Part shown: one piece after another, positions 923 to 44,598 of the stretch | Position numbering within the stretch: position 1 is the first letter of the stretch | Layout: each line of letters begins with the position of its first letter | Origin: Poseidonia sp. | GTDB lineage: Archaea > Thermoplasmatota > Poseidoniia > Poseidoniales > Poseidoniaceae | Assembly (NCBI GenBank): GCA_030829545.1 | Contig: JAURAI010000002.1 | Span: 128,260-192,259 of the forward strand | Direction: 5' to 3' | DNA: 64,000 nucleotides | Position numbers and translations under genes: made by a program | The notes under the pieces: generated by a model | The model's input: only the letters and a program-made list of their open reading frames with translations | The model's database searches: none | Told to the model about the DNA's origin: nothing

Positions 923-3900
923 TCAGGGGTGCTTAACAATTTCACCGTGTTCGTCCTTGTACCACCATTCGTTGGTGGCCTTATCGTGGTACCACCAATA
1001 CCCATCGGAGCCCATGACCCAGTCGGTTTCTTCCTCGGTTGACGAGCTCGTGGATGCTGCTGCTGATGCCGTTGCAGATGATGCAGCACGTTGCTCCATT
1101 TCGTCATCATCGTCGTCATCGTAATCATCCTCAAGTTCGTCTGAGTATTCATCCCAATCATAGGCGATTTTTGAACCTTGATTGACCGTCATGCGCTTCA
1201 GCCAAAGCAAGAGAGTCACAACGATGGAGATGAAAAGAAGAGTCGTGATTGCACCGATAACAGGGTTGACATCTCCAAACACCTTTTCTGTAAAGCCTGG
1301 GTCTTCAGAAACTCGTACGTCTACGGTTGGGCCACTGGACATAGCACCGTTCTCAAGGGTTGCTTCAATCCATTGGACACCGGTGCGTTCTGGACCCCAA
1401 TCAAGGGTCACGATACCAACACCGCCAGCATCAACCGTGACGCTGGTCCGTTGAATTTCAGACCGAGTGCCGTCGAGTTCAACCGATTCAAAGATGATAT
1501 CAACACTGCCTTCCAGCGTCCCTGTATTCTCGACTTCCAGTTGAATTGAGGTGGTATCACCCACTTCAAGGAGGAGGCGAGAATAGGTCATCGAGGATGG
1601 CGACACTGTAAATTCGGGTTGCAGCCATTCCATGTTCCACGTGGCAATACTGGTTCCACTGACTCCACCGTTAAGGCCCGTAACCTCGTTACCTGCGAGG
1701 TCTCGACCTTCAACATAGATCTTGACGACCATGCGGTCAATGAGCATCGAGTCAGTGATTTCACTGAGGTCCATTTCTGTCGAGAGTTCGAGGCGGAGTC
1801 CGTCTAATTCGGTCCCCATAAGGTTCAGTGCTTCACGCCCGGACCGAATGGTGTCTCGGGTCTCAAAGTCTTCAACCACCCAAACCAATTCAAGAGATTG
1901 AACGTCCAAGCCCCCAAGTTCTTCGATGACAATACGGACATCATGCCCTTCGCCTCCAAGGATGGCAAGCGGACGGGGCGACAAGATTTCTACAGGGTTT
2001 GGACCCGTACCATCAACGAGAATCCATTTGACAGAGGTTTCCTTATCGGTAAGGTCAACGCCTTGTCCTTCGAGGCAACCAACCTCCCACGTCAATGGAA
2101 GTGCACCGGATACTGCAGGCGCTTCCAAGGGAGTGGACCAAATGCCATCATAGGCCGTTGCAGTGTAGGTTGAGCCAGCAAAGAGAAGGTTGACCTCGCA
2201 ATCAAAGACTGGAACTGTTGATGTTTCTGCAAACACCAACCCGCCCGAAATCTCCATCGGAGTGAGCGGTGTAACACGAGCGCCATCACCAAGGAAGGAA
2301 CCACGTGTAAGGAAGAGATTGACACTCTCTTCTGGAATGCTCAAGCCTGCTGAAAAGCGCCAGCGATGTTCAGGGAAGTTACGAGAGTCTTCCTGTCCAG
2401 CCCGGTCGATGACCAGAATCGCTGGTTCACGACGGTTGTCACCAAGGTCCGGCGTATTCCAGCCGAAGGTCAAGTCAATTTGCAGCAGCATATCCTTCTC
2501 AAAGGGCCCAGCAACGCCATTTTCACCCATCATGGTGCAGTCTTCAATAAAGATATGAATCGATTCTGTCGTACAGTTGCCGCTTTCAAAGTCCCAAATG
2601 ATGCTCATGGTATCGCTGCCTTGGTTACTGGCCAACATCACCTCAACGGTGTCGAGGTCAGACCCTCCATTCGGTTCGGTAATTTTCACGTCGAGTTGGT
2701 AGGGTTGTCCGGGATGCAACCATGATTTCCTTCCATCTGCCCACGAGAATGCATCAGGGTCGAGTGTTGGAGCACCATCAATTGCCAGTTGGTAGACCGT
2801 CAATTGTTGACCCTCTTCTGCGCTACCGCCCTGTTGGATCGCATAGCCTGACGGGTCCGTGCCTTCAAGATAGACCGCTACTTTTTGGCCCAAACTGCCG
2901 GCGGTATCGTCCATCATGAGCGTGTAGATTCCGGTGAGTGCGGTGCGGTCGCTTGGCAAGAGCATGGCGACAGGCGAATATTCGCCTTCATCGGGCAAAC
3001 CGTTGAGGTTGTCGTCATCGGCCCATTCTTTCCAGACCATCGCGTTCATCGCCGCGGGGAGGATTGGTTGGTCCATGATGGTCACCTGCAACACTTGGGT
3101 TGGGCTAGGGGTACGGTGATCGTATTGATACATCGAGCTCTCAAGGACACGAGGCTTGACGGAATCGACGGTGAAGGTTCGGGCCACTTCGTTGGGCTCA
3201 ATGATGGTTGAACCGTTGAGGGAAACAAGACGTACCGTCCAGGTGACATCACCATAGGTGAAGGGAATGGTCTCGGTTATGTTCCAGTACACACCATCCA
3301 ACGTGGTTGTATTGATGACGGCTGAACCGTCGCGGTAGAGGGTTAATTCGGCATCTCCATCGACGAAAGCACCTGCTGAAGTGAGGCCTTCAAAGCCAAT
3401 TTCAACCGAGACGTTCATGCTCGTTCCACCTTGCAGGTACTGCCTGGTGCTCGGCATAACACCTTCAGCATCGGAGAAGGTCATGGCCTTAATTTCAAGG
3501 TCGTTTTCATACCCTTGATTGTTCAAGTCGCCCCAAGTATGCGAGAAGGGGATGGAGATGACGCCGCTTTGGAGTACGAGGCGGGAGGTCGCCGTAAGTT
3601 GCATTTCATCGTCCCACATCGGGCGCAATCGGAAGGTGATGTTGGCCGTGACCGTCGAGCCGTCAACAAGCGCTTCAATAGGTGAGTCGGGGTGGATTTC
3701 TACCAGGTCAGCATCACCCAGGCCTGCTGGTGAGCCTCCACTTGCAGGGAAGAGCCAGGTGGCTTGGTGTGATTTGCTGAAGACATCAAGACGATAATGC
3801 GTAACAGTGCCGCCAAAGACCTGATATTCGGTCTCGATGGTCTGCCAGTCTTGACTTGGAGTCAGCACTGCTTGTGTGTTACGCATGTCGCCATCTTGAA

Positions 3901-6058: not shown

Positions 6059-6186
6059 CCATTTTCTCTCCATTCTTTGGCACAAATCAGCGCACAGATG
6101 CGGAAGGAGGTAAGAACCGGGACGACTGGCCGAAAAAGAGTCACTTCGGGAGTGATATTCAAAACGAGACCACGGGTGGAACCAAC

Positions 6187-27668: not shown

Positions 27669-30600
27669 ATGGGGGAGAGCCTTGGACGCCGAATGCTCCC
27701 CGTCGCCCTGGTGCTTTTGCTCCTCTTCAACTTGGTTCCCGTTGAGCACCATGAGGCCTTAGAGAAGCGACCAGTCCACCAATCAACGGCAGGAGACCCC
27801 GGTGTATCGGACGTGCCAACATGGCGAATCGGTGACCGCTGGATCTACGCTGGAACCTTTGATCCAACCATCTTGGTAACCGATACCGGCGTAGATGCCA
27901 CGGTTGGTGAGATTCAAGGCGACACCACCGTTGAGGTCACGGGCATCAGCACTCAAAATGTGGACAACATGTCGGTCCTCGCGTACACCCTTCGAACCTC
28001 GGCGAACTTTGACAAATCGGGTGTGTCGCTTGAAGGCTATTCTGGAAACGTCTACATTCAATTTACCCAAACAGAATACCTCCGAGTCAGTGACCTCTCA
28101 CCCATTCGCAGCGATTTAGACCTCTACATTCGCTTTGTACCCAGCGGTATTTCCTTCCTTGAGCAACTTCTTGGAGACATCACCATCACCACCACCTATT
28201 CGCCAGTGAACGAAAATTACGATTTCCCCCTTCGTATCGATGAACGATGGACCACCACCACCACCTCCTCCTCCCAGTGGTCCGGTCAAAGCGATTACAT
28301 CACCCCCTTCCCACCTCCCGAGACCGACACCAACACCACAACGTGGGTGGTTACCGACACTGGAAAACCCTACAATGACCTCGGGCAAACCATTGATTAT
28401 GGCGGATGCAATGAATCCTACGAGATGACATCATTCAACAGCGATGGAATTTCTGAGGGTTACCGCTGGTATTGCCCTGAAGTGCGCAATTATGCTTGGC
28501 TTCACACGTCCGATGACATCGGACTAACCATTGATTTCAAACTCAAGCGGTACGACCCAGTGGGTGCCACAGGGGTTGAGCCCTACACAAACCCGGGCAT
28601 TCGTTCCGACTGCCTCGACGTGGTGCCTGAGCGAAGCATCACGGCCCTCAACACGCCCATGCAAGTTTGGGTCAACACTTCATCTTCTTGCTTTTCAAAC
28701 ACAGCCGGCCTTTCGCTTGAACTCCATCATGAAGTTGAAGGTTTTGTGACCACCCTGGCCACAGCCGCCAACGGTAGCGCGTGGACCACCATCGACGTTG
28801 GCGACGCATTGGATTCTTCGGCCACGCAACTCGATTATGCAAGCCACGGTTTGGTGGCCAAAGCAGGCAACAAGGTTGGAGCGACCACCGTAACGCTTGA
28901 CCAATACCTCGTGGGATTGGATGTCTTCGCAGATGAAGGAGCGGCCGTGATTTTGCGAACACGATGTACGGCTGATGAATGCGTGATTACCCAACTCAAC
29001 GCCATCTCAGGGTTCAATGTCCTCCCGGGAGATGTATTGGACATTGAACTGGCCTTCAACAACCGAGGCATCACAACTTCCACGGCCTCTGATGCTCGCC
29101 TAACGACTCCTGACGGTGTCCAAACCACCATCTCGCTTCCTGCGCTTCAAACATACCAAGCGTACAAATTGTTTGAGATTTGGACCGTTCCAGAAGACGC
29201 TTCAATTGGTGCCTTGCAGATCCAATGGGAAGCGGACATCAGCGGAATCAACACCGCAGATGCAGACCTGCAAAATAACCTCGGAACGATTGACCTCTTT
29301 GTTGGTCGCGTACCAACGCCGGTTGCCGCCGAGGCCATTGGACTTACCCGAGAGACCATTCTTCTCGACGCCAGTGAAAGTTTCGACGAAGACGGCGGAG
29401 AGGTTTCTTGTGAGTTCTATGTCCCCTTTGACGACGGAACACGGACGTGGGATTACGAGCGAATCGTTTCCCCATCCTGCCTACTCAACTACACCTGGAT
29501 TGACGATGGTGTTTACCCTGTTGAAATCACCGTTGAGGACGAGGAGCGTGATGAAACCGTTCTGATTCTCAATGTCTCTGTGGAAAATCGTGCGCCGAAG
29601 ATCGAAGTCAGAAGCCAACGAACGGAAGCCAAGGTGGAATACCCAATCACGCTCTATGCATACGCCAACGACTCAGATTCGGAGGAAGTTTGGCCCGGAG
29701 TGGTGGACATCTATTGGCCTGGGGCAAATTGCAAGGAAGGCTACTACACACGCGTTTGCACCACTACTGCCACCACCGAAGGGTGGAAGACCTTCACCGC
29801 CATCGGTACCGATGACGACCGAGCAACCGCAACAGCAACCTTTGACGTCAAATTTACCAACATTCAGCCACACAGCATCAACATCCAGATGATTGACAAC
29901 GATGGGCCGATTGTCATGGACGCACAGGACACATGGCACGTGGACGAGGACCAAATGGTGACTGTTAAAGGCCAAGCTCAGGATTCTGTCGACGACATCG
30001 AGGACCTCACCCACACTTGGTGGCCCGATGATGCGCAACCTTCCTTGATTCGAGTCTTTGACGGTCGGACCTCCGAATTCGAGATGGTCTGGCTGGAAGC
30101 GGGCTTGCATAAAATGCGCCTCGAGGTCACCGACTCAGAGGGTGCATCGAGTGGCATCGAAGAGCGATGGGTCAGCGTGCGTAACGTGCCACCTGTCATC
30201 GACCCAATTCCATTCGTATTACCGATTGCCGAAGGCCAGACCATCAGCGTGACTGGTTCAGCAACCGACACACCATCAGACGCAGAAACACTGGTCAAAT
30301 GCTGGGACATTGACCCCAGTATGGATTCAAACGATATCGGTAGTGCAGATGACGACTGTGATGTTGTGGGCGATAACCTCACGATTTCTTGGAACCGAAG
30401 CGGAACCCACAAGTTGGTGTATCACGTCACAGATGACGATGGAGCACATACCAGTGAAGTCTTGGTTGTTCAAGTTCTCAACACCCCTCCAATCGTTCGA
30501 ACGGCTGCAGTCAAGTGCACCGCCTATGAGCCCTGCCTCCTCGATGCGAGTTCAACGATCGACGCTCTCAGCGACATCCAAGGCCTCACCGTTGTTTGGG

Positions 30601-31160
30601 ACATCGATGTCAACCACGATAGTAACGAGGATGGAATCACCGACAATGACGCTGACTTGGTTGGCAAGACGGTCACCTATACCTTCCGAACGGAAGGTGT
30701 CCACTCCGTCCGAGTGATGGCCTGGGACGAGGACCCAGAACGTCCGGGCTCGAAGGTCATTACCTTCGCCATTTTACCCGCTGACAGAACGCCTCTGGAA
30801 AACATGGGAGCCGCCCTCGTCGGTGAAGAAGCAAACGCTGTTGCGCAAATCGGTTTACTTGTCACCCTTCTGCTCATCCTCACCCTGTTGACGCGCCGCA
30901 AGCGACCCAAAGCAGAAGAAACGGATGTATGGGACCAAGTATCAACCGCTCTTGCAGGTGAACGCCAAGAAAATCGTGACGACCACATCAGCCGTAAGCG
31001 ACCTGAAGGCCCTCCACCAGGCTATCTCTTCGACGCCAATTCACTCGGTCATCCAAATCAAGGTCAACCTCCCATTCCAGAGGAAGGACTGCCAGAAGGA
31101 TGGACTGTTGAACAGTGGAATTACTACGGACAACAGTGGTTGGATTCCCAAGAAAATTGA
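27669..31160 (+). CDS. Giant surface protein paralog A: conserved N-terminal domain, PKD/Ig-like repeat array, C-terminal TM anchor and cytoplasmic tail.
   Basis: Signal MGESLGRRMLPVALVLLLLFNLVP (alternative ATGs at 27642 and 27693). Repeated D-x-D-G-type modules (SESFDEDGGEVSC, TDDDRATATA, VTDSEGASS, VTDDDGAHTS). TM helix IGLLVTLLLILTLL followed by RRKR. The tail ends GLPEGWTVEQWNYYGQQW. Confidence 0.85.
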   Translation: MGESLGRRMLPVALVLLLLFNLVPVEHHEALEKRPVHQSTAGDPGVSDVPTWRIGDRWIYAGTFDPTILVTDTGVDATVGEIQGDTTVEVTGISTQNVDNMSVLAYTLRTSANFDKSGVSLEGYSGNVYIQFTQTEYLRVSDLSPIRSDLDLYIRFVPSGISFLEQLLGDITITTTYSPVNENYDFPLRIDERWTTTTTSSSQWSGQSDYITPFPPPETDTNTTTWVVTDTGKPYNDLGQTIDYGGCNESYEMTSFNSDGISEGYRWYCPEVRNYAWLHTSDDIGLTIDFKLKRYDPVGATGVEPYTNPGIRSDCLDVVPERSITALNTPMQVWVNTSSSCFSNTAGLSLELHHEVEGFVTTLATAANGSAWTTIDVGDALDSSATQLDYASHGLVAKAGNKVGATTVTLDQYLVGLDVFADEGAAVILRTRCTADECVITQLNAISGFNVLPGDVLDIELAFNNRGITTSTASDARLTTPDGVQTTISLPALQTYQAYKLFEIWTVPEDASIGALQIQWEADISGINTADADLQNNLGTIDLFVGRVPTPVAAEAIGLTRETILLDASESFDEDGGEVSCEFYVPFDDGTRTWDYERIVSPSCLLNYTWIDDGVYPVEITVEDEERDETVLILNVSVENRAPKIEVRSQRTEAKVEYPITLYAYANDSDSEEVWPGVVDIYWPGANCKEGYYTRVCTTTATTEGWKTFTAIGTDDDRATATATFDVKFTNIQPHSINIQMIDNDGPIVMDAQDTWHVDEDQMVTVKGQAQDSVDDIEDLTHTWWPDDAQPSLIRVFDGRTSEFEMVWLEAGLHKMRLEVTDSEGASSGIEERWVSVRNVPPVIDPIPFVLPIAEGQTISVTGSATDTPSDAETLVKCWDIDPSMDSNDIGSADDDCDVVGDNLTISWNRSGTHKLVYHVTDDDGAHTSEVLVVQVLNTPPIVRTAAVKCTAYEPCLLDASSTIDALSDIQGLTVVWDIDVNHDSNEDGITDNDADLVGKTVTYTFRTEGVHSVRVMAWDEDPERPGSKVITFAILPADRTPLENMGAALVGEEANAVAQIGLLVTLLLILTLLTRRKRPKAEETDVWDQVSTALAGERQENRDDHISRKRPEGPPPGYLFDANSLGHPNQGQPPIPEEGLPEGWTVEQWNYYGQQWLDSQEN

Positions 31161-31207
31161 CACGATAACGGACATTCTCTTTTGTAGAAGGACATTCACC
31201 TCTGCCC

Positions 31208-34200
31208 ATGAACAGAGCCTCCATGAAGGCAATCCTCCTCGTCGCACTCTTCGTGATGACCTCAGCCTTGACCATGGTTGAATCATCCATTCAACTCGAA
31301 GATGGACCAGCAACAAGCGAAACACAAAGCGGTGCAATTAGAATCGTTGACGTCCCCACGTACCGGGTGGGCGATGAATGGGTATACGACACTAAATTTG
31401 ACGTTGCTCAACTTCTCGCTCAAGCCAATGTTTCTGCTTCGCTCAACACCCTCACCGGAGACACGGTCAACGAAGTGACCGATGTTTTCTATGCCACGGA
31501 TAACAATGGCGACACGGTCTTGGCGTATGAGATTGAAATTGATGGAAGTTTCTCATCTGGCAACAGTGGCGCCACCCTCGAAGGCGTCACCGGACGGTTG
31601 GAAATTGATTACGAAGGCGTTGATATTCTACGTGCTCGTGACCTTGCAACCATCACCAGCGACTTCACCCTTGATGTTAACTTCGCACCCTTGAACCTCG
31701 GTTTCCTATCTCAAAATTTGGGAATCGTGACCTTCGACAACACCTACACACCAGCCAAAGAGCGTCATGATTTCCCGCTGCGAAACGGAGACCAATGGTA
31801 CATGCCCTTCACGGCGGAAACTGAAGTCACAGGTTCCTCTGATTACTTTGACCCTTCTGAATTTGATTCGGAGGAATCCGAAAACAATTCGTGGCAGGTC
31901 GTCAAAAACGAGGCCCCTTCAGAAGACGGTGACACCCCTCAATACACAGGTTGTGACGATTCATACAAGATTGCAGAATGGAATGAAACCGGCGTGAATA
32001 CTGGATTCAACTGGTACTGCCCTGCGGTACGTGGAAGCGTATGGAATCGTATCATCAACTCGGCTGGATTTACCATCGACTGGATTCTCAAGACCTACAA
32101 TCCTGCCGATTCCAATAGCGTCGTGCCTGGTTCTTCACCGGGTGGCCGAAATACGCAGATCGAGGTCTATACGGCATACTCTGCTACCCTGCCCAATTCA
32201 ATGGAGCAAATCTCAATCGATTATTCCGTTGCTGGCTCCCCATCAATCCCGATCAAAAATACAAACCTTCAGCTGAGGTATGAACTTGCGGATACGATTC
32301 ACAATCCAACCACCGACAATAACGGGCTGGCCCAAGTTCCACTCAACGTCTCTTCAGAGGTTGATGACACACCAAGCAGTGATGATCACACCAGCAACGG
32401 CGTGGTCGTCTATGACCCAGCCAACAAAATCGTTGGTGCCACGACCGTTGTCGTCGATTTGAGCGTCGTTGGCGTCGACCTTGTAGCCCAAGCAAATTCA
32501 GCCATTGTTGAACGAACCAGAGGTGGCGTCACAACAACCCTCAGTTCATCAATCGGATTCAATGCCCTTCCCGGCGACACCATTTCCTTCTCGCTCCCTG
32601 CTCAAAACCGTGGGGTGCTGACTTCACCACCGACCTACATGGAAATTCAGACGCCTGATGAAGCGACCGTCCGTGCTATGATTCCAGCCATTGAGCCCTA
32701 CAGCGAGCAGCGCGTACAGGTGAATTGGTCGGTCCCTGAAACCTTGGCTATCGGATTCAAAACCATGCAATTTACCGTTGACCCAGACCAAAATGTCACC
32801 GCCGATGCAAACCGAAGCAATAACGAGGCAACACTCTCGATTTTCATCGGACGTTCGCCCACAGGAGATTTGATTGTTGATGAAGGAAAATACACCTTCG
32901 AGAATGTCACCTTGAACGCTACTGCCAGTTTTGACGAGGACGGAGGTTCAGTCGATTGTGTCTTTGAAATTGAATCGCGAATCGGCCTGGTCGACATCAT
33001 CGAAGCACCCGGCTGTTGGACCCAGTGGAACTGGTCAAACAGTGGCTCTTGGACGGTGAAAGTTCTCGTGGTCGACGAGGAATTGGATACCGACGAAGTT
33101 CAATTGGAAGTTATTGTCCTCAACCGTCCGCCTGCATTCAACCTCACCCATCCCGAATCGGTCTTTGTTGAATCCAAAGTGACCGTTGAGGCCATCGATA
33201 TTGTTGATATTGACACCTCGTCTCCCTCTGGCCAACAAGTATCCATAGCGTGGCCAACCCTTGACTGCGACGAAGGGTTGACCCAACCGACCTGTACCTT
33301 TACGCCGATGTTCGAAGGACCTGTTAACATCACTGCGGTTGCGACGGACGATGATGGTGCCAAAACGACCGCCTACTCATCCATCGATGTTCTCAACATT
33401 GCTCCGACCTTGGACTATCCACAACTGTGGAAAGGTGGAGAGGAACTTCTTCTCGATGAGAATGGTACGTGGCATTTGAATGAAGATGAGGTTGCCCTCT
33501 TGCGCGTCACGGCAGCGGATTCTGCCAACGATGCAGGTACACTCATCATCGAATGGCACCCATCTGCTGAATATCAAGATTGGACCATTACCAGCGTTGG
33601 CATCAGTTCCTCTGAGGCCGTTTCATGGCCAACTTCTGGCCCGCATATCATCCAAGTGCGCGCCATTGATGCAGACGGTGCGAGTTCTGACCCGCTCCAA
33701 GCCAACATCATGATTCACAACGTTGCTCCAACCGTAACGGGTCTTCCAATCTTTGAAGCCGTTGAGGAGGATGCAGAATACACCCTTTCAGTGACGGCCG
33801 AAGACACCGCATCAGACCAAGATTCCCTTGAGATTTGCTGGGACTTTGACCGCAATGTGGACGTTGATAATGACGGCATGGGAGACAATGACTGCGAAAT
33901 GGAAGGTCTGTCGGTCTCAACGTCATGGTCAACTGTCGGCATGCAATGGATCACGGTGACCGTGACCGATGACGACGGTGAAAGCGCACAGCAATCAATG
34001 AACATAAGCGTCGTCAACAGAGCTCCTCTTCCTGAAATCTCTTACCAGAATCTCGCTCTTGAAAACTTGACAGAAGGTGACAACCTTACCATCAGCGGAT
34101 TTGAAACCATTGACTCTCCAAGCGATAAAGCCATTCTCACATATCAGTGGGACGCATCTCACCTCGACACTGACCTCGACGGAAGTAAGGTCGGTGACGT

Positions 34201-34795
34201 TGATTACTCAGGCCCAACTTGGATTATTGAAGACCTTCCTGCCGGCACCTGGACCATCGTTCTCACCGTCATCGATGACGATGGTGAATCAGGACAAAGC
34301 GAGATTACAATTCTTGTCGCACAAGCACCAGCAGAAGGCTTCTTTGAAACCATCAGTTCCTCGGTTGGAACCACGACTGCAATGATCATCGTTGTCTTGG
34401 GCTTTGTGATTGTTGGACTCGTCGTCTTCTTGCTCTTTACTCGCCAAGGCAGTTCAAAAGACGAAGACTTCTCATCATTTGGACAACAGATGAACAGTGG
34501 TTTGCCTGCCATGGAGATGGCTCAGCCTGCTGCCGCACCTACCGTGGCACCTGCAGTCGTATCTGCCCCCGCAGCCGAACCTGCACTTCAACAAGAAGTC
34601 TACAACAGTGGACCTCCCTTGCCGGCGAGTGGCTTACCTGCGGGCTGGACAATGGAACAGTGGAACTACTACGGTGAGCAGTGGTTTGCCGCGAATCAGC
34701 CAGCACCAGCGCCTGTTCAACCCATAGTTTCACAAACACCTCCTACCCCTGCCTCAGACCAGTTGAGCTCGTTATTGGACGATTTAGACTTCTGA
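31208..34795 (+). CDS. Giant surface protein paralog B, a tandem duplicate of the upstream gene.
   Basis: Colinear with paralog A: VPTYRVGDEWVY vs VPTWRIGDRWIY, DFPLRNGDQW vs DFPLRIDERW, WYCPAVRG vs WYCPEVRN, and the same repeat modules. TM helix MIIVVLGFVIVGLVVFLLF. The tail contains GLPAGWTMEQWNYYGEQW. Confidence 0.85.
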   Translation: MNRASMKAILLVALFVMTSALTMVESSIQLEDGPATSETQSGAIRIVDVPTYRVGDEWVYDTKFDVAQLLAQANVSASLNTLTGDTVNEVTDVFYATDNNGDTVLAYEIEIDGSFSSGNSGATLEGVTGRLEIDYEGVDILRARDLATITSDFTLDVNFAPLNLGFLSQNLGIVTFDNTYTPAKERHDFPLRNGDQWYMPFTAETEVTGSSDYFDPSEFDSEESENNSWQVVKNEAPSEDGDTPQYTGCDDSYKIAEWNETGVNTGFNWYCPAVRGSVWNRIINSAGFTIDWILKTYNPADSNSVVPGSSPGGRNTQIEVYTAYSATLPNSMEQISIDYSVAGSPSIPIKNTNLQLRYELADTIHNPTTDNNGLAQVPLNVSSEVDDTPSSDDHTSNGVVVYDPANKIVGATTVVVDLSVVGVDLVAQANSAIVERTRGGVTTTLSSSIGFNALPGDTISFSLPAQNRGVLTSPPTYMEIQTPDEATVRAMIPAIEPYSEQRVQVNWSVPETLAIGFKTMQFTVDPDQNVTADANRSNNEATLSIFIGRSPTGDLIVDEGKYTFENVTLNATASFDEDGGSVDCVFEIESRIGLVDIIEAPGCWTQWNWSNSGSWTVKVLVVDEELDTDEVQLEVIVLNRPPAFNLTHPESVFVESKVTVEAIDIVDIDTSSPSGQQVSIAWPTLDCDEGLTQPTCTFTPMFEGPVNITAVATDDDGAKTTAYSSIDVLNIAPTLDYPQLWKGGEELLLDENGTWHLNEDEVALLRVTAADSANDAGTLIIEWHPSAEYQDWTITSVGISSSEAVSWPTSGPHIIQVRAIDADGASSDPLQANIMIHNVAPTVTGLPIFEAVEEDAEYTLSVTAEDTASDQDSLEICWDFDRNVDVDNDGMGDNDCEMEGLSVSTSWSTVGMQWITVTVTDDDGESAQQSMNISVVNRAPLPEISYQNLALENLTEGDNLTISGFETIDSPSDKAILTYQWDASHLDTDLDGSKVGDVDYSGPTWIIEDLPAGTWTIVLTVIDDDGESGQSEITILVAQAPAEGFFETISSSVGTTTAMIIVVLGFVIVGLVVFLLFTRQGSSKDEDFSSFGQQMNSGLPAMEMAQPAAAPTVAPAVVSAPAAEPALQQEVYNSGPPLPASGLPAGWTMEQWNYYGEQWFAANQPAPAPVQPIVSQTPPTPASDQLSSLLDDLDF

Positions 34796-34804
34796 GGTAC
34801 ATCC

Positions 34805-35362
34805 ATGGTCAATTTGTGGCATTTTTTCGGACTCCCCGACCCCGAGGGAAATGCCCCTGTGGCTCGACGCCGGACTCCAAACCCTGCTGAACAACCTGTT
34901 GCTCTTGAAACCGCTCCGGTGGCAGGTACAGAAAGCAAACCAAAGCCAGCCTCTGCAACGAAATCCAACAGTTCTGGTCTACGACCTGTGCCTCTTGGAT
35001 GGACCGGTCCACTTACGCCCGATGGTGAACCCTTTCACGACCTCGGCATGGTCAGATCGCCACCTCTACCGCTTCCGACCCAGGCTTTACGGTACGTTGC
35101 ACCCGATGAAATGAAACGAATTCACGCCCAGTCCATACTCAAAAGAGTGATTCAAGGGGATACTGTGATCGTAGACCTTCGCCCACTTGTCCATATGGAC
35201 AGTCACCAAATGGCATGCAGAAGAGAACTCAAACACATGGGTGATCAGGCGGGGGTTGAGATTTTTGCACTTGATAATGAGGATAAATTGCTGATGATTC
35301 CCGGGCTTGACATCGTCGTTGACATGCAGAAGCGAGAATTGGGTTTGACACCCTTGCTGTGA
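34805..35362 (+). CDS. sepF: SepF-like cell-division protein (FtsZ membrane anchor family) with a long Pro-rich linker.
   Basis: The N-terminal MVNLWHFFGL resembles the SepF amphipathic membrane-targeting helix ending in FFG(L/M). The C-terminal ~85 aa (VIQGDTVIVDLRPL...GVEIFALDNEDKLLMIPGLDIVV) is colinear with the SepF/DUF552 core. Call made from pattern only. Confidence 0.6.
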   Translation: MVNLWHFFGLPDPEGNAPVARRRTPNPAEQPVALETAPVAGTESKPKPASATKSNSSGLRPVPLGWTGPLTPDGEPFHDLGMVRSPPLPLPTQALRYVAPDEMKRIHAQSILKRVIQGDTVIVDLRPLVHMDSHQMACRRELKHMGDQAGVEIFALDNEDKLLMIPGLDIVVDMQKRELGLTPLL

Positions 35363-35364
35363 AT

Positions 35365-35934
35365 TTAGAGCAGCGATGCGAGGGCCTCAAGATGCTCCAA
35401 AGCACCTGAGGCAAGACCGAGTACGACTGATTCAGAACCCTCGATGAGCGTTGCATGTTCGCCCATGGGGCCATGAAGGTCATATCCTCCGGCTTTGCCC
35501 TTCCATGAGCCAGAATCAATGAGTTGAGAAAAAACTTCATCTGAAAATTCGGGGAAGGCCACAACGGCATGTTCACACCAGAAGGTCCACGTGCCGTTCC
35601 AATACAAACCGCTGGCCGTCCAAACTTGATGATGACGCCCTGAAAGACGATGGAGCATGACTGCTGCATGGGCTTTGCTGGTGGGTTTTCCGATGCTCAA
35701 GGAGTGGTCATCAGGGTCACTGATCATGGTATCTGCTACGAGGATGGCATCAAAGTTGGTGGATTCATTGAGCGCCGCAGCCTTTCGTTTGCAGATACTC
35801 AGAACTTGGGACTCCACCGTGCCGCTTGGCGGTGATTCATCAACACCATCAAGACCCTCTTGGTGCAATGACGGATAGATGGGTCGCAACATAGCCGCCC
35901 GACGGGGTGACGCTGAGGCTAACCAGAGTTTCAT
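35365..35934 (-). CDS. maf: Maf-family nucleoside triphosphate pyrophosphatase.
   Basis: MKLWLASASPRRAAML N-terminus and GKAGGY motif region (WKGKAGGYDLHG). Confidence 0.85.
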   Translation of the reverse strand: MKLWLASASPRRAAMLRPIYPSLHQEGLDGVDESPPSGTVESQVLSICKRKAAALNESTNFDAILVADTMISDPDDHSLSIGKPTSKAHAAVMLHRLSGRHHQVWTASGLYWNGTWTFWCEHAVVAFPEFSDEVFSQLIDSGSWKGKAGGYDLHGPMGEHATLIEGSESVVLGLASGALEHLEALASLL

Positions 35935-38587: not shown

Positions 38588-41500
38588 TCACAAATCGAAG
38601 CCATCGCCACAGACGGGGCACTTGATGCGCTTCAACATCAAATCCTTCACGCTAAAGCTCGCTTGGCATGATGGGCATTTTGCTTCACGTTTCAGATCAG
38701 GAAGCGGCAAAGGTACAGGTTGAATTGGAGTGACTGGAAGAGGAAGTCCTTCGAGCGGTGGCAATTGTCCAGGTAAAGGAAGAGGGGGCAAGCCTTGCTG
38801 AAGGGCGGCTGTCATTTCGCCAATTTCTCGTTGTTGCTTGCGTTGCATACGGCGCTCAAGACGTGCATTCCCTTCACCATCCTCGAGTTTCTTTTCAAGT
38901 TCTGCTGCAAGCGTATCTTCTTCTTCAACGATCACCGCTACCGCAGATTCACTGACGGTCAATTCATCTTCATTCTCGTCGATCAGGAGCAGAGGGCCTT
39001 CGTCCTGTTCAATATTGACCATGATTTCAATGCTGTCCGTTTCCTCTGAGAGCAAGGCTTCCAATCCTTCAAGTTCCGTGTGAGAGCGTCGTACGCTGAC
39101 AATGACGAACACGAGGAAGGATACGAAGACGATTGCCATGACGCCCAACAAGCGTATCTTGAATTCATCGGAATCACCCGGTAGGTACTCAAGAAGCGTC
39201 TCAAAGAGCCCCGGCGATTCAATGACGTCTTGGGAGCCGCTCAAGGAAACAACCTTGCTCAGCGAATAAGAACCAGCGGGTGTCATGGTGCACACAACGG
39301 TATCATCTTCCATCGTACCGATACCGAATGTAAAGCCTACGAAGAGCATGTTCGAGAGCCCTGGAGTTGCTTCACCGTCTTCATTGGCGATAAGACCCAT
39401 ACGCGAGACTGGTCCATAGACGTTAATCTCGTCGTGATAGAGGTAGACACCGCCTTTCTGATCAGACAAGGCGATTGTACTGACACCAGGGGTTGAAGTA
39501 TGTATCACGTTATCATTTGACCAAATAGAATCTGTTGAGATGGTAGCAACAGCCGCTGTTTTCCCTTGCCCTTCAATCCAAGCCCCAATCAATCGGTCAG
39601 AACGATCGTCAACAAGGACATTGAGTTGCGGCGAGGTGGCTTCATCACCGATTGAATACTGGAAACTCCAGGAGGGTTCGTTCAATGCTCCGTGCGTGTA
39701 CATGAGGCCAACGCGTTCCACTCCCGTAACGTCATCCCTGTATTCTTGATAGAAGATATGCAGGTATTCTTCGCCCAAACCAACAGCAAGTGGTTGGGCA
39801 TCTGCTGGTTGAATGTCAATGTCCACGAGGACTGTCAAAGCATTGCCCCAGGAGGCACCGCGATCAGGTGTGGGAGAAGAGAGGACAAAGATGGAAGTGA
39901 GATCTTGCCAAGACCCTCCTGTTGACAAATCCCGATGGTATCCTGCGAGGACCATGGTTCCGTCATATTGATCAAATGTGAAGCCGTAATAGGAGCCTTC
40001 AGAGAGTTTGAGTGCCGGCATGTGGTAGTGTTTTGGCGTAGTTTTTCCAGCAGCCGAAATTGAGGTCATGGCGATATCGCTCAGTATGTAGCCTTCCAGA
40101 TTCAAAGTACGTCGCGTCCATGCGAGTTGAACAAGTCCGTCATCGCGTTCATGAACGGCGAGTTCTCCACCCCACGATTCTTCAATGACAACGCCCCCTG
40201 GCATGCTGAGGGTTGAGGTGATGGTACGGGCGTGCAATTCACCATCAATGGTCGTGAATAGAAGCCCACCGTCGTCAAGACCAACGAATTCCACAGGCGT
40301 TTCACCGGTTGCCAAGGAGATGGGTACTTTGGCGCCTACATACAAATCCACTACCGTCACGTTGAACCGTAATTGACTGTGTTCAAGCTCAACACCTGAG
40401 CCACTGAGTACCGCTCTGTAGGCGATATGTCCAGGGTCGTAAACCACATCTGCAAACTTGGTGAATGCATAACCCGAGGTGGTACTTGAGCCAGGAACGA
40501 GGTTGAGTGTTTTGTCGTCAAGACGGCTCCAGCTGCCGACATCATCCAGCCAACGTTCAAGTCCTATGTTGAGACTCGTGGCGTCGGTTTGGCCGAGGTT
40601 GTCAAGCCTGATTTGGATGTCGAAAGGAGTACCAGGAGTTGGTATTTCGGGTTGGGTTCGCGATGAGCCTGCTAGGAAACGAAGCATGGGTTCAACCGGC
40701 CGAGGTTGGATTTCGAAACTGAAGGTGTAGACGTTGTTGTCTCTGTCAGCATCATCGTATTGCTGGGAAGGGTCGAGTGACAAGGTCACTTCATGTGTTC
40801 CGGCTTCAGTCGCCCACCAGTACAGCGTTGCTCGAACGCTCTCGCCTTCTTCAAGCGAGGTGACCTTACCTTCAGACGGATAGGTTGCGGAATCATCACC
40901 GGGACCATCGAGCCGCAGATAGACTTCGTTGGCGTCAAGGTCGCCAATGTTGCGAACACCAAAGCGTACTTCCAAAACGGTTCCAGCAACAGCACTGTTG
41001 ACCGGCAGGCCTCCATCAAACACTTCAACTGAGCCTGAAAAGGTAAAATCAGGTGCTGCTGGTAGGTTATCCACTTCGTAGGTCCGCCGCAGCACCTCAC
41101 TGGATACTTCTGATGCATTGATTGTGCGCACGCTGATTCGGTGTGAACCATCGGCAACCGATGCAGAATCCCACGTAAAGGACCAGGCTTGAATCCCTTC
41201 ATCTTGCTCCGAGAGTGTGTCGCCAAGAACCCAGTCGCCGTTGTCAATTTTATATTCAACACGATCGTGTTCTGGACCTTCTACGATTCCGCTGAAATCA
41301 ACGAAACCAACCAGGTTCGTTCCGATACCAGGTTCTGAAATCGAGATGGATAAGCGAGTGAGGTGGACGACTCGAACATCGATTGACGAGGCATCTCCAG
41401 CGGCATTGAGCGCACGAGCATAGACCAAGGTGTAGGCTTCATCTTGGTCAATCCAATCATCATCGACCATGAGGTCGTAATACCACTCTTCAACGGTACC

Positions 41501-43551: not shown

Positions 43552-44598
43552 TCACGCCTTCGGCCATTCAAGATGTTCAGCATTCGCTGAGCATTGCAAT
43601 CTTGGGCCGCTTGACCGGACCACCATGCCCAAAGGTGCATCACAATGCGGACACACTCCTGCATTCGCAATGTGTTCCATCCATGCCATACGGGTTTCAG
43701 GCTCATCACTTGCTTGCATGAGATTCTTCAAGGCATTACGGAGATGCTTGGGGATGGTGAGGCCTTGCTCAGTCCACGGATCTTGGAGTGCGACCATGTC
43801 CACCATTTGTGATTTCATTCGGCGGCGCTCAGCAGTCACTGAATCTCGATGACTCGGCCCTCCGTCGACCACCCCGAGTCCAACAGGCCCTCCCTTGGCA
43901 ACCAAAGGAAGCAGCGCATAAGCGGCGACAAAGCCACCAATGTGCGCCATGTGTGCAATGCCGGATGAAACGCCTGACTCCATGGTTGTGAAAGCACGCA
44001 TCAATTCAATCCCAAAGTAGAGAAGGGCAATGAAGACGACGGGCCATGGACGTATCAACAGGAGAGGGAAGGGGATTTCATCTCTGGGCCATCCTGCGAG
44101 GTAAGCTCCCAAAAGGCCAAAGGCGGCACCTGAGGCGCCGAGTGCTGGAATGTTTGATTCGGCATTGAATGCAATCCAACCGATTGAACCACCCAATAAG
44201 CCAAGAACGTAGATGATTCCAAATCGTTTGGTGCCCAAGCGTTGTTCAAGAGGCACACCCACAAGTGCAAGGATGATCACATTCCCCAACACGTGGGTCA
44301 TGTCATTTTGGCTGTGGAGAAAGCCAGCAGAGATGAGCGTGTGCCAAAAATCGGGGGATGTACTTCTCACCGGAACCAAGACAAAATCGCTCCAGACCCA
44401 GTACTCGACCCATCCCCAAGAGGCAAATACAGCCCATAGAACCTGAACCACCGCCCCCAATAGGACGCTCACAGTGATCCCCATAGCGAGGGATGTTTTG
44501 CTTCGCACAGCATAGAACATCGGAGTTGTGACGGCTGCAAACCACAGGAGAAGTACGCCCCATTCAGCCGTGTCAAACAGGCTCATGGCGAAGGGCAT
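43552..44598 (-). CDS. Rhomboid-family intramembrane serine protease with a C-terminal cytoplasmic Cys-rich (zinc-ribbon-like) extension.
   Basis: FLHSQNDMTHVLGNV, catalytic GASGAAFGLLGAY and AHIGGFVAAY. The C-terminus contains CPHCDAPLG...LQCSANAEH. Confidence 0.85.
   Translation of the reverse strand: MPFAMSLFDTAEWGVLLLWFAAVTTPMFYAVRSKTSLAMGITVSVLLGAVVQVLWAVFASWGWVEYWVWSDFVLVPVRSTSPDFWHTLISAGFLHSQNDMTHVLGNVIILALVGVPLEQRLGTKRFGIIYVLGLLGGSIGWIAFNAESNIPALGASGAAFGLLGAYLAGWPRDEIPFPLLLIRPWPVVFIALLYFGIELMRAFTTMESGVSSGIAHMAHIGGFVAAYALLPLVAKGGPVGLGVVDGGPSHRDSVTAERRRMKSQMVDMVALQDPWTEQGLTIPKHLRNALKNLMQASDEPETRMAWMEHIANAGVCPHCDAPLGMVVRSSGPRLQCSANAEHLEWPKA

What the first reader, a model, noticed from the sequence alone, without database searches (positions are those of the whole stretch)
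31086..34684. Conserved Trp/Tyr-rich cytoplasmic C-terminal module on the giant surface proteins (WW-like?)
Seen in the sequence: after their single TM helix, both paralogs carry a nearly identical tail motif.
- GLPEGWTVEQWNYYGQQW (31086-31139)
- GLPAGWTMEQWNYYGEQW (34631-34684)

This conservation is far higher than in the ectodomains.

The unrelated giant protein on the other strand ends with DGYWWYHDKATNEWWYKDEHGE (about 926-1010, minus strand). This also follows a TM helix and an acidic linker.

Established: the LP.GW start and the aromatic Y-Y...W spacing are reminiscent of WW domains (LPxGWE...YY.N..T..W), or of short aromatic beta-hairpin repeats such as choline-binding repeats. These segments are shorter than a canonical WW domain.

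Inference: a small aromatic module facing the cytoplasm could couple giant surface proteins to an intracellular partner for sorting, clustering or cytoskeletal attachment. I know of no description of such a tail signal in archaea.
Basis: partly seen in the sequence, partly recalled or inferred. Interest (0 to 1): 0.65.

Follow-up and report, generated by a model that had tools for sequence, protein, structure and literature searches.

The report
Shared cytoplasmic tail tag, marine archaea
Two neighbouring giant surface proteins of a Marine Group II (Poseidoniales) archaeon end, on the cytoplasmic side, in a ~26-residue proline-plus-tryptophan module that at least nine seemingly unrelated membrane-protein families of this order share; no database or searchable paper describes it, it is not a WW domain, and it most likely lets one cytoplasmic partner recognise many surface proteins.

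Summary
Both motifs sit at the stated coordinates, 15/18 identical in paralogs that are 31% identical overall.

It is not a WW domain. Pfam, NCBIfam and PDB searches give nothing significant, and AlphaFold2 predicts a Pro-rich extended arm followed by a 16-residue amphipathic helix.

The core is P-P-[LIV]-P-x-x-G-L-P-x-G-W-[TS]-M-E-Q-W-x-[HY]-Y-G-x-Q-[YW]-L-[DE].
- An exhaustive profile search finds it in 640 protein clusters, almost always about 10 residues from the C-terminus.
- A back-translated scan of GTDB genomes hit its 120-locus limit. All hits are Poseidoniales (MGIIa and MGIIb), or contigs apparently mis-binned from them.
- At least nine carrier families show no detectable ectodomain similarity to each other.
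- The module follows a TM helix, basic residues and a 22-143-aa disordered acidic linker.
- In one protein it lies N-terminal to the TM, next to a SAP domain. That again puts it in the cytoplasm.

Best reading (inferred, about 0.5): a tethered docking tag for a shared cytoplasmic partner. No partner was found.

The third protein's tail is a different, family-specific aromatic module. The paralog-2 family adds a terminal LLDDLDF and is always followed by a SepF-like gene.

The parts
27669..31160 (+). Paralog 1: type I giant surface protein (1163 aa from the ATG; the ORF opens at TTG 27639). It has a signal or anchor stretch at 27693-27743, a PKD-containing ectodomain, one TM helix and a cytoplasmic tail.
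   Evidence: 120 orthologs, Poseidoniaceae
30837..30911 (+). Paralog 1 TM helix AVAQIGLLVTLLLILTLLT followed by RRKRPK (positive-inside signal).
   Evidence: AF2 helix at residues 8-28 of the tail model
30912..31067 (+). Paralog 1 flexible cytoplasmic linker. It includes a second element specific to this ortholog family, RPEGPPPGYLF (30999-31031).
   Evidence: (P63, P67, F72 invariant in alignment A2)
31068..31145 (+). Tail module, copy 1: PPIPEEGLPEGWTVEQWNYYGQQWLD. It consists of a Pro-rich arm plus an N-capped amphipathic aromatic helix (31104-31151).
31208..34795 (+). Paralog 2: type I giant surface protein (1195 aa). It has a signal stretch at 31229-31279, a PKD/CARDB ectodomain and a TM helix at 34379-34441.
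34613..34687 (+). Tail module, copy 2: PPLPASGLPAGWTMEQWNYYGEQWF.
34763..34792 (+). Extra extreme C-terminal acidic-hydrophobic motif LSSLLDDLDF, specific to the paralog-2 family.
34805..35362 (+). SepF-like ORF (185 aa) starting 9 nt after the paralog-2 stop. It has an N-terminal amphipathic MVNLWHFFGLPDPE, a linker and a conserved C-terminal domain. The same arrangement occurs in 5 other loci.
   Evidence: Pfam SepF E 0.21 in 1/6; IMG name 'SepF-like ... DUF552'
926..1027 (-). A different C-terminal aromatic module on the third giant protein (ORF 923-6241): TDWVMGSDGYWWYHDKATNEWWYKDEHGEIVKHP. It follows a TM helix (1199-1255) and an acidic linker (1091-1159).

Best explanation
The motif is the core of a ~26-30-residue portable cytoplasmic tail module found only in Poseidoniales (Marine Group II archaea) in the data sampled here. 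Its anatomy is a proline-rich extended arm (PP[LIV]PxxGLPxGW) leading into an N-capped 16-residue amphipathic helix ([TS]-M-E-Q-W-x-[HY]-Y-G-x-Q-[YW]-L-[DE]). One face of that helix is W-Y-[W/Y]-L arranged around an invariant Gly. The module hangs at the end of a 22-143-residue disordered, acidic, Pro/Gln/Ser-rich tether behind the single TM helix. It occurs on many otherwise dissimilar membrane proteins, mostly ~1,100-1,600-residue type I surface proteins. Most likely it is a docking tag: a common handle by which one cytoplasmic or inner-leaflet-associated partner recognises a whole set of surface proteins, to position, retain, cluster or turn them over. Shown here: the motif's existence, its conservation, its portability between families, its cytoplasmic side, its predicted arm-plus-helix structure, and that it is not a WW or GYF domain. 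Inferred: that it works by binding a shared partner. The partner is unknown.
For: Conservation: across 116 orthologs down to 49% identity the motif is near-invariant (0.84) inside a poorly conserved tail (0.44). Spread: a profile search of 1.84 billion representatives finds 640 clusters at E<=1e-3 and 290 at E<=1e-10, with a median of 10 residues between YG and the C-terminus. The same pattern has 0 matches in 2.9 million viral contigs. Taxonomy: all hits are Poseidoniaceae, Thalassarchaeaceae or generic MGII labels. Four contigs are labelled bacterial. Three of their carriers are 85%, 61% and 49% identical to Poseidoniales orthologs; the fourth (L070) shows only 23%. Portability: there are at least nine carrier families with no BLAST similarity outside the tail, plus small 1-2-TM proteins and one protein with two copies. 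Cytoplasmic side: 59/61 complete carriers have an N-terminal signal-like stretch. K+R averages 1.54 after the TM against 0.78 before it (p=2.5e-7). In L050 the motif sits with a SAP domain N-terminal to the only TM, and in P0248 it follows RNRGRR after the second TM. Structure: AF2 gives helix 98-113 with pLDDT 92-94 in the full tail. For the motif alone, block pLDDT is 71/89/90/79, so the non-helical GLPxGW lead-in is also confident. The helix is amphipathic, with muH 0.33 against 0.16 for shuffles. A terminal, structured, invariant element on a long variable tether, shared by dissimilar proteins, is the architecture expected of a docking site.
Against: No partner was identified. No neighbouring gene family is shared between different carrier families, so genomic context gives no clue. 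Only monomer predictions were possible. I could not inspect coordinates, so packing of the Pro arm on the aromatic face is inferred from pLDDT alone. Foldseek found no structural analogue. A self-contained mini-fold might bury the aromatic face and leave little surface for binding. The GTDB scan was truncated, so occurrence outside Poseidoniales is not excluded. The organisms are uncultured, so nothing is known about the localisation of these proteins.
Confidence: 0.5

Rival explanations
1. Homotypic clustering module. The aromatic faces of modules on neighbouring molecules pair with each other, or the Pro arm of one packs on the helix of another. Different surface proteins would then co-cluster under the membrane, with aromatic 'stickers' on disordered 'spacers', and no separate partner would be needed.
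For: The helix has an amphipathic aromatic face around an invariant Gly, which would allow close helix-helix or PPII-helix contact. The tethers are long, disordered and Q/P/S-rich. One protein carries two tandem copies (P0140). No partner gene is visible in any neighbourhood.
Against: The module is strongly acidic (mean net charge -3.5), which disfavours self-association without counter-ions. AF2 is already confident for the monomer. Nothing here tests oligomerisation.
Confidence: 0.15
2. Transient recognition signal for biogenesis or turnover. The tag would be read by an insertion, quality-control or proteolytic machinery (for example ectodomain shedding or intramembrane proteolysis) rather than by a stable anchoring partner.
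For: The motif is a lineage-wide C-terminal tag on many unrelated surface proteins, as with other prokaryotic C-terminal sorting signals. It lies close to the extreme C-terminus (median 10 residues after YG). A rhomboid protease gene lies in the window at 43552-44598, next to another giant anchored protein.
Against: Known prokaryotic sorting tags sit next to or within the TM segment and have short tails. Here the tag is 22-143 residues away on the cytoplasmic side. NCBIfam, which holds the sortase-type signal models, gives no hit. The rhomboid gene is not adjacent to any motif carrier, and no neighbour is shared between carrier families. In L050 the tag is internal and N-terminal to the TM.
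Confidence: 0.15
3. Membrane-interface helix. The Trp/Tyr-rich amphipathic helix folds back and lies in the inner-leaflet interface, pinning the tail to the membrane.
For: Trp and Tyr prefer membrane interfaces (established knowledge). The hydrophobic moment is significant (0.33; only 2.5% of shuffles reach it).
Against: The polar face is acidic or amide with no conserved Lys or Arg, and the 34-residue segment carries a mean net charge of -3.5 (range -8 to +1). Mean hydrophobicity is negative (-0.15). The invariant Pro arm, E-Q pair and Gly are not explained by lipid binding.
Confidence: 0.08
4. Divergent or truncated WW domain that binds Pro-rich ligands.
For: The 'GLPxGW' start is shared with Itch and Salvador WW domains (E 0.003-1.7).
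Against: There is no Pfam WW match for the tails or for 34 variants at E<=10. Trp spacing is 5 and 7 residues instead of about 20-22. There is no W-x-x-P. AF2 predicts a helix, not a three-stranded sheet. The module is 26 residues rather than about 35.
Confidence: 0.02

Closest known systems
WW domain (Pfam PF00397)
   Same: It starts with L-P-x-G-W, is rich in Trp and Tyr, is small, and is a cytoplasmic protein-interaction element.
   Different: It is about 26 rather than about 35 residues. Its Trp residues are 5 and 7 apart rather than about 20-22. It has no W-x-x-P. It is predicted helical rather than a three-stranded sheet. There is no profile match.
Polyproline-helix plus alpha-helix mini-proteins (pancreatic-polypeptide fold, Trp-cage); recalled from memory as structural analogues only
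   Same: The predicted anatomy is a Pro-rich extended arm joined by a Gly-containing turn to a short amphipathic helix whose aromatic residues could interdigitate with the prolines. The non-helical arm has high pLDDT.
   Different: There is no sequence relationship and no Foldseek match. Arm-on-helix packing could not be checked. Those mini-proteins are secreted hormones or designed peptides, not membrane-protein tails.
C-terminal sorting tags of prokaryotic surface proteins (PGF-CTERM/archaeosortase, LPXTG/sortase, PEP-CTERM/exosortase, GlyGly-CTERM/rhombosortase)
   Same: It is a short, lineage-restricted C-terminal signature shared by many otherwise unrelated surface proteins.
   Different: Those signatures lie directly before or within the TM helix, face outward, are followed only by a few basic residues, and are cleaved. 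Here the signature is 22-143 residues beyond the TM on the cytoplasmic side. It can even be N-terminal to the TM (L050). No NCBIfam signal model matches.
Cytoplasmic-tail docking motifs of eukaryotic single-pass receptors (e.g. integrin NPxY-talin, cadherin-catenin, C-terminal PDZ ligands)
   Same: The logic is the same: a conserved short element in a disordered cytoplasmic tail of adhesion-type type I proteins, used by a common intracellular adaptor.
   Different: There is no homology, the partner is unknown, the lineage is archaeal, and the element is longer and apparently folded.
GYF domain (signature GPF-x4-M-x2-W-x3-GYF)
   Same: The motif lines up in register at G, M, W and G (G-L-P-x4-M-x2-W-x3-G). 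Both involve a helix with an aromatic face, and GYF domains bind Pro-rich ligands.
   Different: There is no Pfam GYF hit. The N-terminal W-x-Y hairpin is absent. I rejected this lead.
FtsZ C-terminal peptide bound by archaeal SepF (M. smithii NEDQLDDFIDGIF; PMC8178401); relevant only to the extra LLDDLDF end of the paralog-2 family
   Same: Both are extreme C-terminal acidic-hydrophobic peptides ending in Phe or Leu. The gene is always followed within 5-11 nt by a SepF-like gene.
   Different: It lacks the near-invariant archaeal GID motif. The SepF assignment of the neighbour is weak by sequence. The Poseidoniales FtsZ tail could not be retrieved.

Membership tests
WW domain (PF00397) | Two signature Trp residues about 20-22 residues apart, the second followed by x-x-Pro | tested here: not met
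   The Trp residues are at relative positions 0, 5 and 12, and the last is followed by L-[DE]-x, not x-x-P.
WW domain (PF00397) | Three-stranded antiparallel beta-sheet | tested here: not met
   AF2 predicts a 16-residue helix (pLDDT about 90) and no strand, both in the full tail and in the motif alone.
WW domain (PF00397) | Match to the family profile | tested here: not met
   There is no PF00397 hit at E<=10 for 5 tail fragments or for 34 motif variants. PDB sequence hits are limited to the GLPxGW hexapeptide.
GYF domain (PF02213 / PF14237) | Signature W-x-Y-x(6-11)-GPF-x4-M-x2-W-x3-GYF and a profile match | tested here: not met
   Only G, M, W and G coincide in register. hhalign probability is 0.2%, and there is no Pfam GYF hit.
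Sortase-type C-terminal sorting signals (PGF-CTERM, LPXTG, PEP-CTERM, GlyGly-CTERM) | Signature motif immediately N-terminal to, or within, a C-terminal TM helix that is followed only by a short basic tail | tested here: not met
   The motif lies 22-143 residues after the TM helix (median 61). In L050 it is N-terminal to the TM.
Sortase-type C-terminal sorting signals (PGF-CTERM, LPXTG, PEP-CTERM, GlyGly-CTERM) | Match to an NCBIfam/TIGRFAM signal model | tested here: not met
   There is no relevant NCBIfam hit for either paralog or for the consensus motif.
Pancreatic-polypeptide-type / Trp-cage-type mini-fold (structural analogy only) | Polyproline-II arm packed against an amphipathic helix through interdigitating Pro and aromatic side chains | tested here: inconclusive
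   AF2 gives a confident non-helical Pro arm followed by a helix. Coordinates and contacts were not available, and Foldseek found no match.
Choline-binding / cell-wall-binding repeat (PF01473), for the third protein's tail only | Profile match above the family threshold; aromatic beta-hairpin repeat | tested here: inconclusive
   7 of 23 tail variants hit PF01473 at a best E of 0.053, which is sub-threshold.
SepF (PF04472 / DUF552), for the downstream ORF 34805-35362 | N-terminal amphipathic membrane-targeting helix, flexible linker, C-terminal ~80-90-aa alpha/beta core matching the family profile | tested here: inconclusive
   The architecture fits. Pfam SepF matches only at E 0.21, in 1 of 6 members. 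The profile hits no SepF structure in the PDB. IMG names C-terminal fragments of the same 90% cluster 'SepF-like ... DUF552'.

The most novel reading that the evidence does not exclude
The module is the common handle of an archaeal system that couples the outside of the cell to the inside. Under this reading, a dozen or so families of giant surface proteins in the most abundant planktonic archaea of the surface ocean are all tethered through the same tail tag to one cytoplasmic scaffold, possibly the FtsZ/SepF division apparatus or another cytoskeletal element. The hint for the division apparatus is the invariant, probably co-transcribed SepF-like gene behind the paralog-2 family and that family's FtsZ-tail-like LLDDLDF end. 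This would be a prokaryotic counterpart of integrin- or cadherin-type tail-adaptor linkages. I know of no such system described in archaea.
Probability: 0.15. Interest if true: 0.85.

Novelty: new variant of a known kind. Interest (0 to 1): 0.6.

Why it matters
Poseidoniales are among the most abundant archaea in the surface ocean. They are uncultured, and their many giant surface proteins are annotated only as 'hypothetical' or 'PKD/CARDB'. A single invariant cytoplasmic tag shared by at least nine such families implies that the cell handles them through one common intracellular mechanism. That turns an undifferentiated list of giant ORFs into a defined, searchable set. It also gives a short synthetic peptide that can be used as bait in pull-downs, AF-multimer screens or NMR to find that mechanism without a culture. 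I know of no cytoplasmic-tail docking tag described for archaeal surface proteins, and none turned up in Pfam, NCBIfam or the literature searched. The known shared tags (PGF-CTERM and the like) work on the outer side and are cleaved. The motif is also a clean sequence marker for Poseidoniales contigs: it flagged four apparently mis-binned contigs in 'bacterial' species-representative MAGs.

Tried and rejected
- **Short-query search:** a 46-aa tail query in the word-indexed protein search found nothing, because the tool needs three shared 5-mers. This cost one search. Full-length queries and an exhaustive profile search replaced it.
- **WW domain:** rejected.
- **GYF half-domain:** I recalled that GPF-x4-M-x2-W-x3-GYF matches the motif in register. 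Rejected.
- **Structural analogues:** Foldseek of the 35-residue model against the PDB returned nothing.
- **Partner from genomic context:** I clustered 2,516 ORFs from 120 loci plus the window. No neighbour family is shared between carrier families.
- **Gene conversion or DNA repeat as the cause of paralog similarity:** rejected on synonymous differences.
- **Viral carriage or mimicry:** 0 matches in IMG/VR.
- **SepF identity of the downstream ORF:** not confirmed by sequence (Pfam E 0.21; no PDB SepF hit). It is supported only by architecture and an IMG name.
- **FtsZ-tail mimicry by LLDDLDF:** the archaeal GID consensus is absent. No FtsZ gene was present in the DNA I held, so the lineage's own FtsZ tail could not be compared.
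- **Third tail as WW or choline-binding repeat:** only sub-threshold hits.
- **Literature:** four searches found no description of the motif.
Full report
**1. The observation**

Translation of 31086-31139 and 34631-34684 gives exactly the two peptides reported, GLPEGWTVEQWNYYGQQW and GLPAGWTMEQWNYYGEQW. They lie 7 and 36 residues from the C-termini of two adjacent same-strand ORFs. These are 27639/27669-31160 (1163 aa from the ATG) and 31208-34795 (1195 aa).

Both proteins have the same layout:
- an N-terminal hydrophobic signal-like stretch;
- a large ectodomain with PKD/CARDB domains;
- a single TM helix (30837-30893 and 34379-34441);
- basic residues directly after that helix.

The minus-strand ORF 923-6241 has the same overall layout and ends in TDWVMGSDGYWWYHDKATNEWWYKDEHGEIVKHP, after an acidic linker.

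The two paralogs are 31% identical overall but 15/18 identical in the motif, with P about 7e-6 for one such stretch. At the DNA level the region is only 62% identical. Eight of the 15 identical residues with degenerate codons use different codons. So the similarity is kept by selection on the protein, not by a DNA repeat or recent gene conversion.

A six-frame regular-expression search found no further copy in the window.

**2. Conservation in orthologs**

A full-length search with paralog 1 returned 120 orthologs, down to 49% identity. Where the sources name an organism, it is Candidatus Poseidoniaceae, Euryarchaeota or Thermoplasmatota archaeon.

In 116 full-length orthologs the tail reads …GPPLPexGLPeGWTmEQWeHYGqQ[WY]LdsQ. 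G, L, P, G, W, Q, W, Y and G are invariant or nearly so.

Mean top-residue frequencies:

| Region | Frequency |
|---|---|
| Motif | 0.84 |
| Ectodomain, mean | 0.73 |
| Ectodomain, best stretch | 0.92 |
| Linker between TM and motif | 0.44 |

The motif is therefore an island of conservation at the end of a freely varying tether.

**3. A portable, lineage-wide module**

*Protein-level spread.* I searched a 35-column profile of the motif (A1) exhaustively against 1.84 billion representative proteins. It found 640 clusters at E<=1e-3 and 290 at E<=1e-10. The match is almost always at the extreme C-terminus. Many hits are gene fragments. The full-length ones have different N-terminal parts.

After removing the tail, BLAST groups the larger carriers into several sets with no similarity to each other.

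*DNA-level scan.* I scanned one genome per GTDB species with a back-translated pattern that demands only P-x-G-W-x-x-E-Q-W-x-x-Y-G.
- 121 of the 123 also carry the upstream PP[LIV]P-x-x-G-[LI], which the pattern did not require.
- The same pattern has no match in 2.9 million viral contigs. Chance matches are therefore negligible.

*Taxonomy.* 116 loci are labelled Poseidoniales, Poseidoniaceae, Thalassarchaeaceae, MGII or a generic archaeal name. Four are labelled as bacterial MAGs.
- For three of these, the carrier is 85%, 61% and 49% identical to Poseidoniales orthologs.
- The fourth (L070) shows only 23%, but it has a canonical tail and 47% GC.
- I read all four as mis-binned contigs.

Locus GC ranges from 0.36 to 0.63 and both families of the order are represented. 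The module is therefore old within Poseidoniales.

*Carrier families.* Clustering the parts upstream of the motif gives nine families, with full-length sizes of about 360, 610-995, 1,070-1,300 (several), about 1,540 and about 1,600 aa. They show no detectable similarity to each other. Pfam sees only scattered, mostly sub-threshold Ig-like, CARDB or cadherin-like hits in them.

'Unrelated' here means no BLAST similarity. Remote common ancestry of these beta-rich ectodomains is not excluded.

*Consensus.* From 149 representatives the consensus is P-P-[LIV]-P-x-x-G-L-P-x-G-W-[TS]-M-E-Q-W-x-[HY]-Y-G-x-Q-[YW]-L-[DE]. The median distance from YG to the C-terminus is 10 residues.

**4. Which side of the membrane**

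Several independent lines place the module in the cytoplasm:
- 59 of 61 complete carriers of 300 aa or more have an N-terminal hydrophobic stretch.
- The 15 residues after the last TM hold twice as many K+R as the 15 before it (1.54 vs 0.78; Wilcoxon p = 2.5e-7).
- The ectodomains carry extracellular-type domains.
- Locus L050 encodes an 808-aa protein in the opposite orientation. It has no signal peptide. A SAP domain (Pfam E 5e-9) and then the motif lie N-terminal to its single TM helix, and a large domain follows the TM.
- A two-TM protein (P0248) has the motif after RNRGRR behind its second TM.
- A small one-TM protein (P0140) has a long acidic coiled region and two copies of the motif.

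The tether between TM and motif is 22-143 residues long (median 61). It is 66% P/Q/S/T/A/G/E/N, with 15% D+E and 5% K+R. That composition is what is expected of a disordered linker.

**5. Structure**

AF2 on TM plus tail, with a 37-sequence alignment, gives:
- the TM helix;
- a moderately confident juxtamembrane helix;
- a short helix at the family-specific RPxxPPPxYLF element;
- for the motif, a non-helical lead-in and then helix 98-113 (VEQWNYYGQQWLDSQE), with pLDDT 92-94.

The motif alone (35 residues, 34 sequences) gives the same picture, with helix 19-34 and block pLDDT of 71/89/90/79. The confident non-helical GLPxGW segment suggests the arm has a fixed relation to the helix. I could not inspect contacts, so packing of the arm on the helix remains an inference.

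On a helical wheel, W, Y, [W/Y] and L surround the invariant Gly on one face. The other face is E/Q/D/H. The hydrophobic moment is 0.33 against 0.16 for shuffles (2.5% reach it). The 34-residue segment has a mean net charge of -3.5.

The T-x-E-Q at the helix start fits an N-capping arrangement (established knowledge of helix caps; inference here).

**6. What it is not**

- *WW domain.* There is no Pfam hit for the tails or for 34 variants even at E<=10. PDB sequence hits are confined to the GLPxGW hexapeptide of Salvador and Itch WW domains (E 0.003 single sequence; 0.67-1.7 profile). The Trp spacing is wrong, W-x-x-P is absent, and a helix is predicted instead of a sheet.
- *GYF domain.* The register coincidence I recalled does not survive hhalign (probability 0.2%) or Pfam.
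- *Sortase-type sorting signals.* NCBIfam has no model for the motif. The motif is far from the TM and on the wrong side.
- *Structural analogues.* Foldseek finds none.
- *Literature.* Four searches found no description.

**7. How it most likely works**

The architecture is a short, folded, invariant element at the free end of a long, variable, disordered tether. It is attached to many dissimilar membrane proteins on their cytoplasmic side. This is what one expects of a docking tag read by a common partner. I put that at about 0.5.

The shown steps are existence, conservation, portability, cytoplasmic side and predicted structure. The binding function and the partner are inferred.

Rivals:
- Homotypic clustering (0.15). 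The two-copy protein and the absence of any partner gene favour it. The acidity of the module counts against it.
- A transient biogenesis or turnover signal (0.15).
- A membrane-interface helix (0.08). It is disfavoured by the net charge of -3.5 and by invariant features that lipid binding does not explain.
- A WW-like domain (0.02).

Context gives no partner. Among 2,516 ORFs from the 120 loci and the window, no neighbour family occurs next to more than one carrier family. Each carrier family sits in its own conserved neighbourhood.

**8. The third tail**

The tail of ORF 923-6241 is a separate module.
- It is conserved in more than 110 orthologs: TDWVMGSDGYWWYHDKxxNEWWYKDxxGxIVKH. At 44% identity it becomes DGWTQGSDGVWWWQNQxDGSWWYKDANGEILQYK. 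W6, G9, D11, G12, W14, W24, W25, Y26, K27 and I33 are invariant.
- I found it in no other family in about 0.96 Mb of Poseidoniales DNA.
- It has only sub-threshold resemblance to choline-binding repeats (7/23 variants, best E 0.053) and to other aromatic segments.

**9. A lead from the surroundings**

The paralog-2 family carries, about 35-60 residues after the module, an extreme C-terminal L-x-x-L-L-D-D-L-D-[FL].

In all six loci where I hold such a gene (the window, L065, L072, L078, L093, L117), a ~190-aa ORF follows on the same strand after 5-11 nt. That ORF has:
- an N-terminal amphipathic M-[AVG]-N-L-W-x-F-F-G-L-P;
- a Lys/Pro-rich linker;
- a strongly conserved C-terminal domain.

By sequence it is only marginally SepF-like. 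Pfam gives E 0.21 in one of six members, and no SepF structure is hit. IMG, however, names fragments of the same cluster 'SepF-like predicted cell division protein (DUF552)'. A Maf-like gene is next to it.

Archaeal SepF anchors FtsZ by binding its acidic-hydrophobic C-terminal peptide. In M. smithii that peptide is NEDQLDDFIDGIF, and the archaeal consensus centres on GID (PMC8178401). The LLDDLDF end resembles that peptide in character but lacks GID. I could not retrieve a Poseidoniales FtsZ to compare.

This lead concerns only one carrier family and does not explain the general module.

**10. Verdict**

The WW interpretation is rejected.

Novelty: a new variant of the general kind 'shared terminal tag / cytoplasmic-tail docking motif'. 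It belongs to no known family.

Interest is 0.6. The motif is well defined, abundant and testable with a peptide. Its function is still inferred, and the organisms are uncultured.

Noticed in passing
window 34805-35362 (+); also L065, L072, L078, L093, L117: A ~190-aa ORF with SepF-like architecture (amphipathic N-terminus MxNLWxFFGLP, linker, conserved C-domain) always follows the paralog-2-type gene after 5-11 nt. That gene family ends in LLDDLD[FL], which resembles an FtsZ C-terminal peptide in character but lacks the archaeal GID consensus. A Maf-like gene (35365-35934, -) is adjacent.
   Followed up: partly
window 926-1027 (-), C-terminus of ORF 923-6241: A second, unrelated cytoplasmic C-terminal aromatic module (TDWVMGSDGYWWYHDKxxNEWWYKDxxGEIVKH) is conserved in more than 110 orthologs down to 44% identity. 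It has only sub-threshold hits to choline-binding repeats, and I found it in no other family in the DNA I held.
   Followed up: partly
window 38588-43471 (-) and 43552-44598 (-): A 1,627-aa anchored subtilase (Peptidase_S8 + Big_7 + CARDB) has a ~170-aa cytoplasmic tail. The tail contains a Pro/Leu-rich stretch (GLPPLPLPGQLPPLEGLPLPV...) and ends in a zinc-ribbon-like CPSC...CPVC. The adjacent gene is a rhomboid protease that also ends in a Cys/His-rich segment. This is a third type of cytoplasmic tail on a giant surface protein within the same 64 kb.
   Followed up: no
L050 (contig DAVY01000020.1, Euryarchaeota archaeon UBA130), 808-aa ORF on the + strand: A type II-oriented membrane protein. 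A SAP domain and then the tail module lie N-terminal to the single TM helix, with a large uncharacterised domain after it. It is the only carrier seen with the module not near the C-terminus.
   Followed up: partly
L005, L041, L044, L070 (GTDB species-representative MAGs labelled Salipiger bermudensis, Flammeovirgaceae, Verrucomicrobiales, Yoonia): These 'bacterial' MAG contigs encode motif carriers. Three are 85%, 61% and 49% identical to Poseidoniales orthologs. The fourth (L070) shows only 23% but has a canonical tail and 47% GC. They look like mis-binned archaeal contigs in reference genomes.
   Followed up: partly
window 30999-31031 (+) and orthologs (alignment A2): Paralog-1 orthologs share a second tail element, R-[RK]-P-x-x-P-P-x-x-x-F (RPEGPPPGYLF here, which includes a PPxY-like PPPGY). 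Two Pro and the Phe are invariant, and AF2 places a short helix there. PPLP- and PPxY-like strings also recur in the tails of other anchored proteins in the window and in the SepF-like linker (SPPLPLP).
   Followed up: no
window 34979-35041 (+), inside the SepF-like ORF: The invariant linker segment VPLGWTGPLTPDGEPFHDL resembles the first two strands of a WW domain (phmmer hit to YAP2 WW, E 1.4). It has no second Trp. The significance is unclear.
   Followed up: no
window 55946-57400 (+): A 484-aa protein combines an exosome Rrp4-type N-terminal domain (ECR1_N) with two RRM_1 domains (E 2.6e-32) and a Lys/Arg/Gly-rich tail. From my own knowledge, RRM domains are uncommon in archaea.
   Followed up: no
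window 59282-61945 (+) and 16210-18765 (+): Two further anchored surface proteins lack either aromatic module. One has long GGNNTGNNT-type Asn/Gly/Thr repeats and a C-terminal TM followed only by SRRQDD. The other is a lamin-tail-domain plus amidohydrolase protein with the tail ...MWDEQSEAETESFVPELPPLVPPAGKVSEEE.
   Followed up: no
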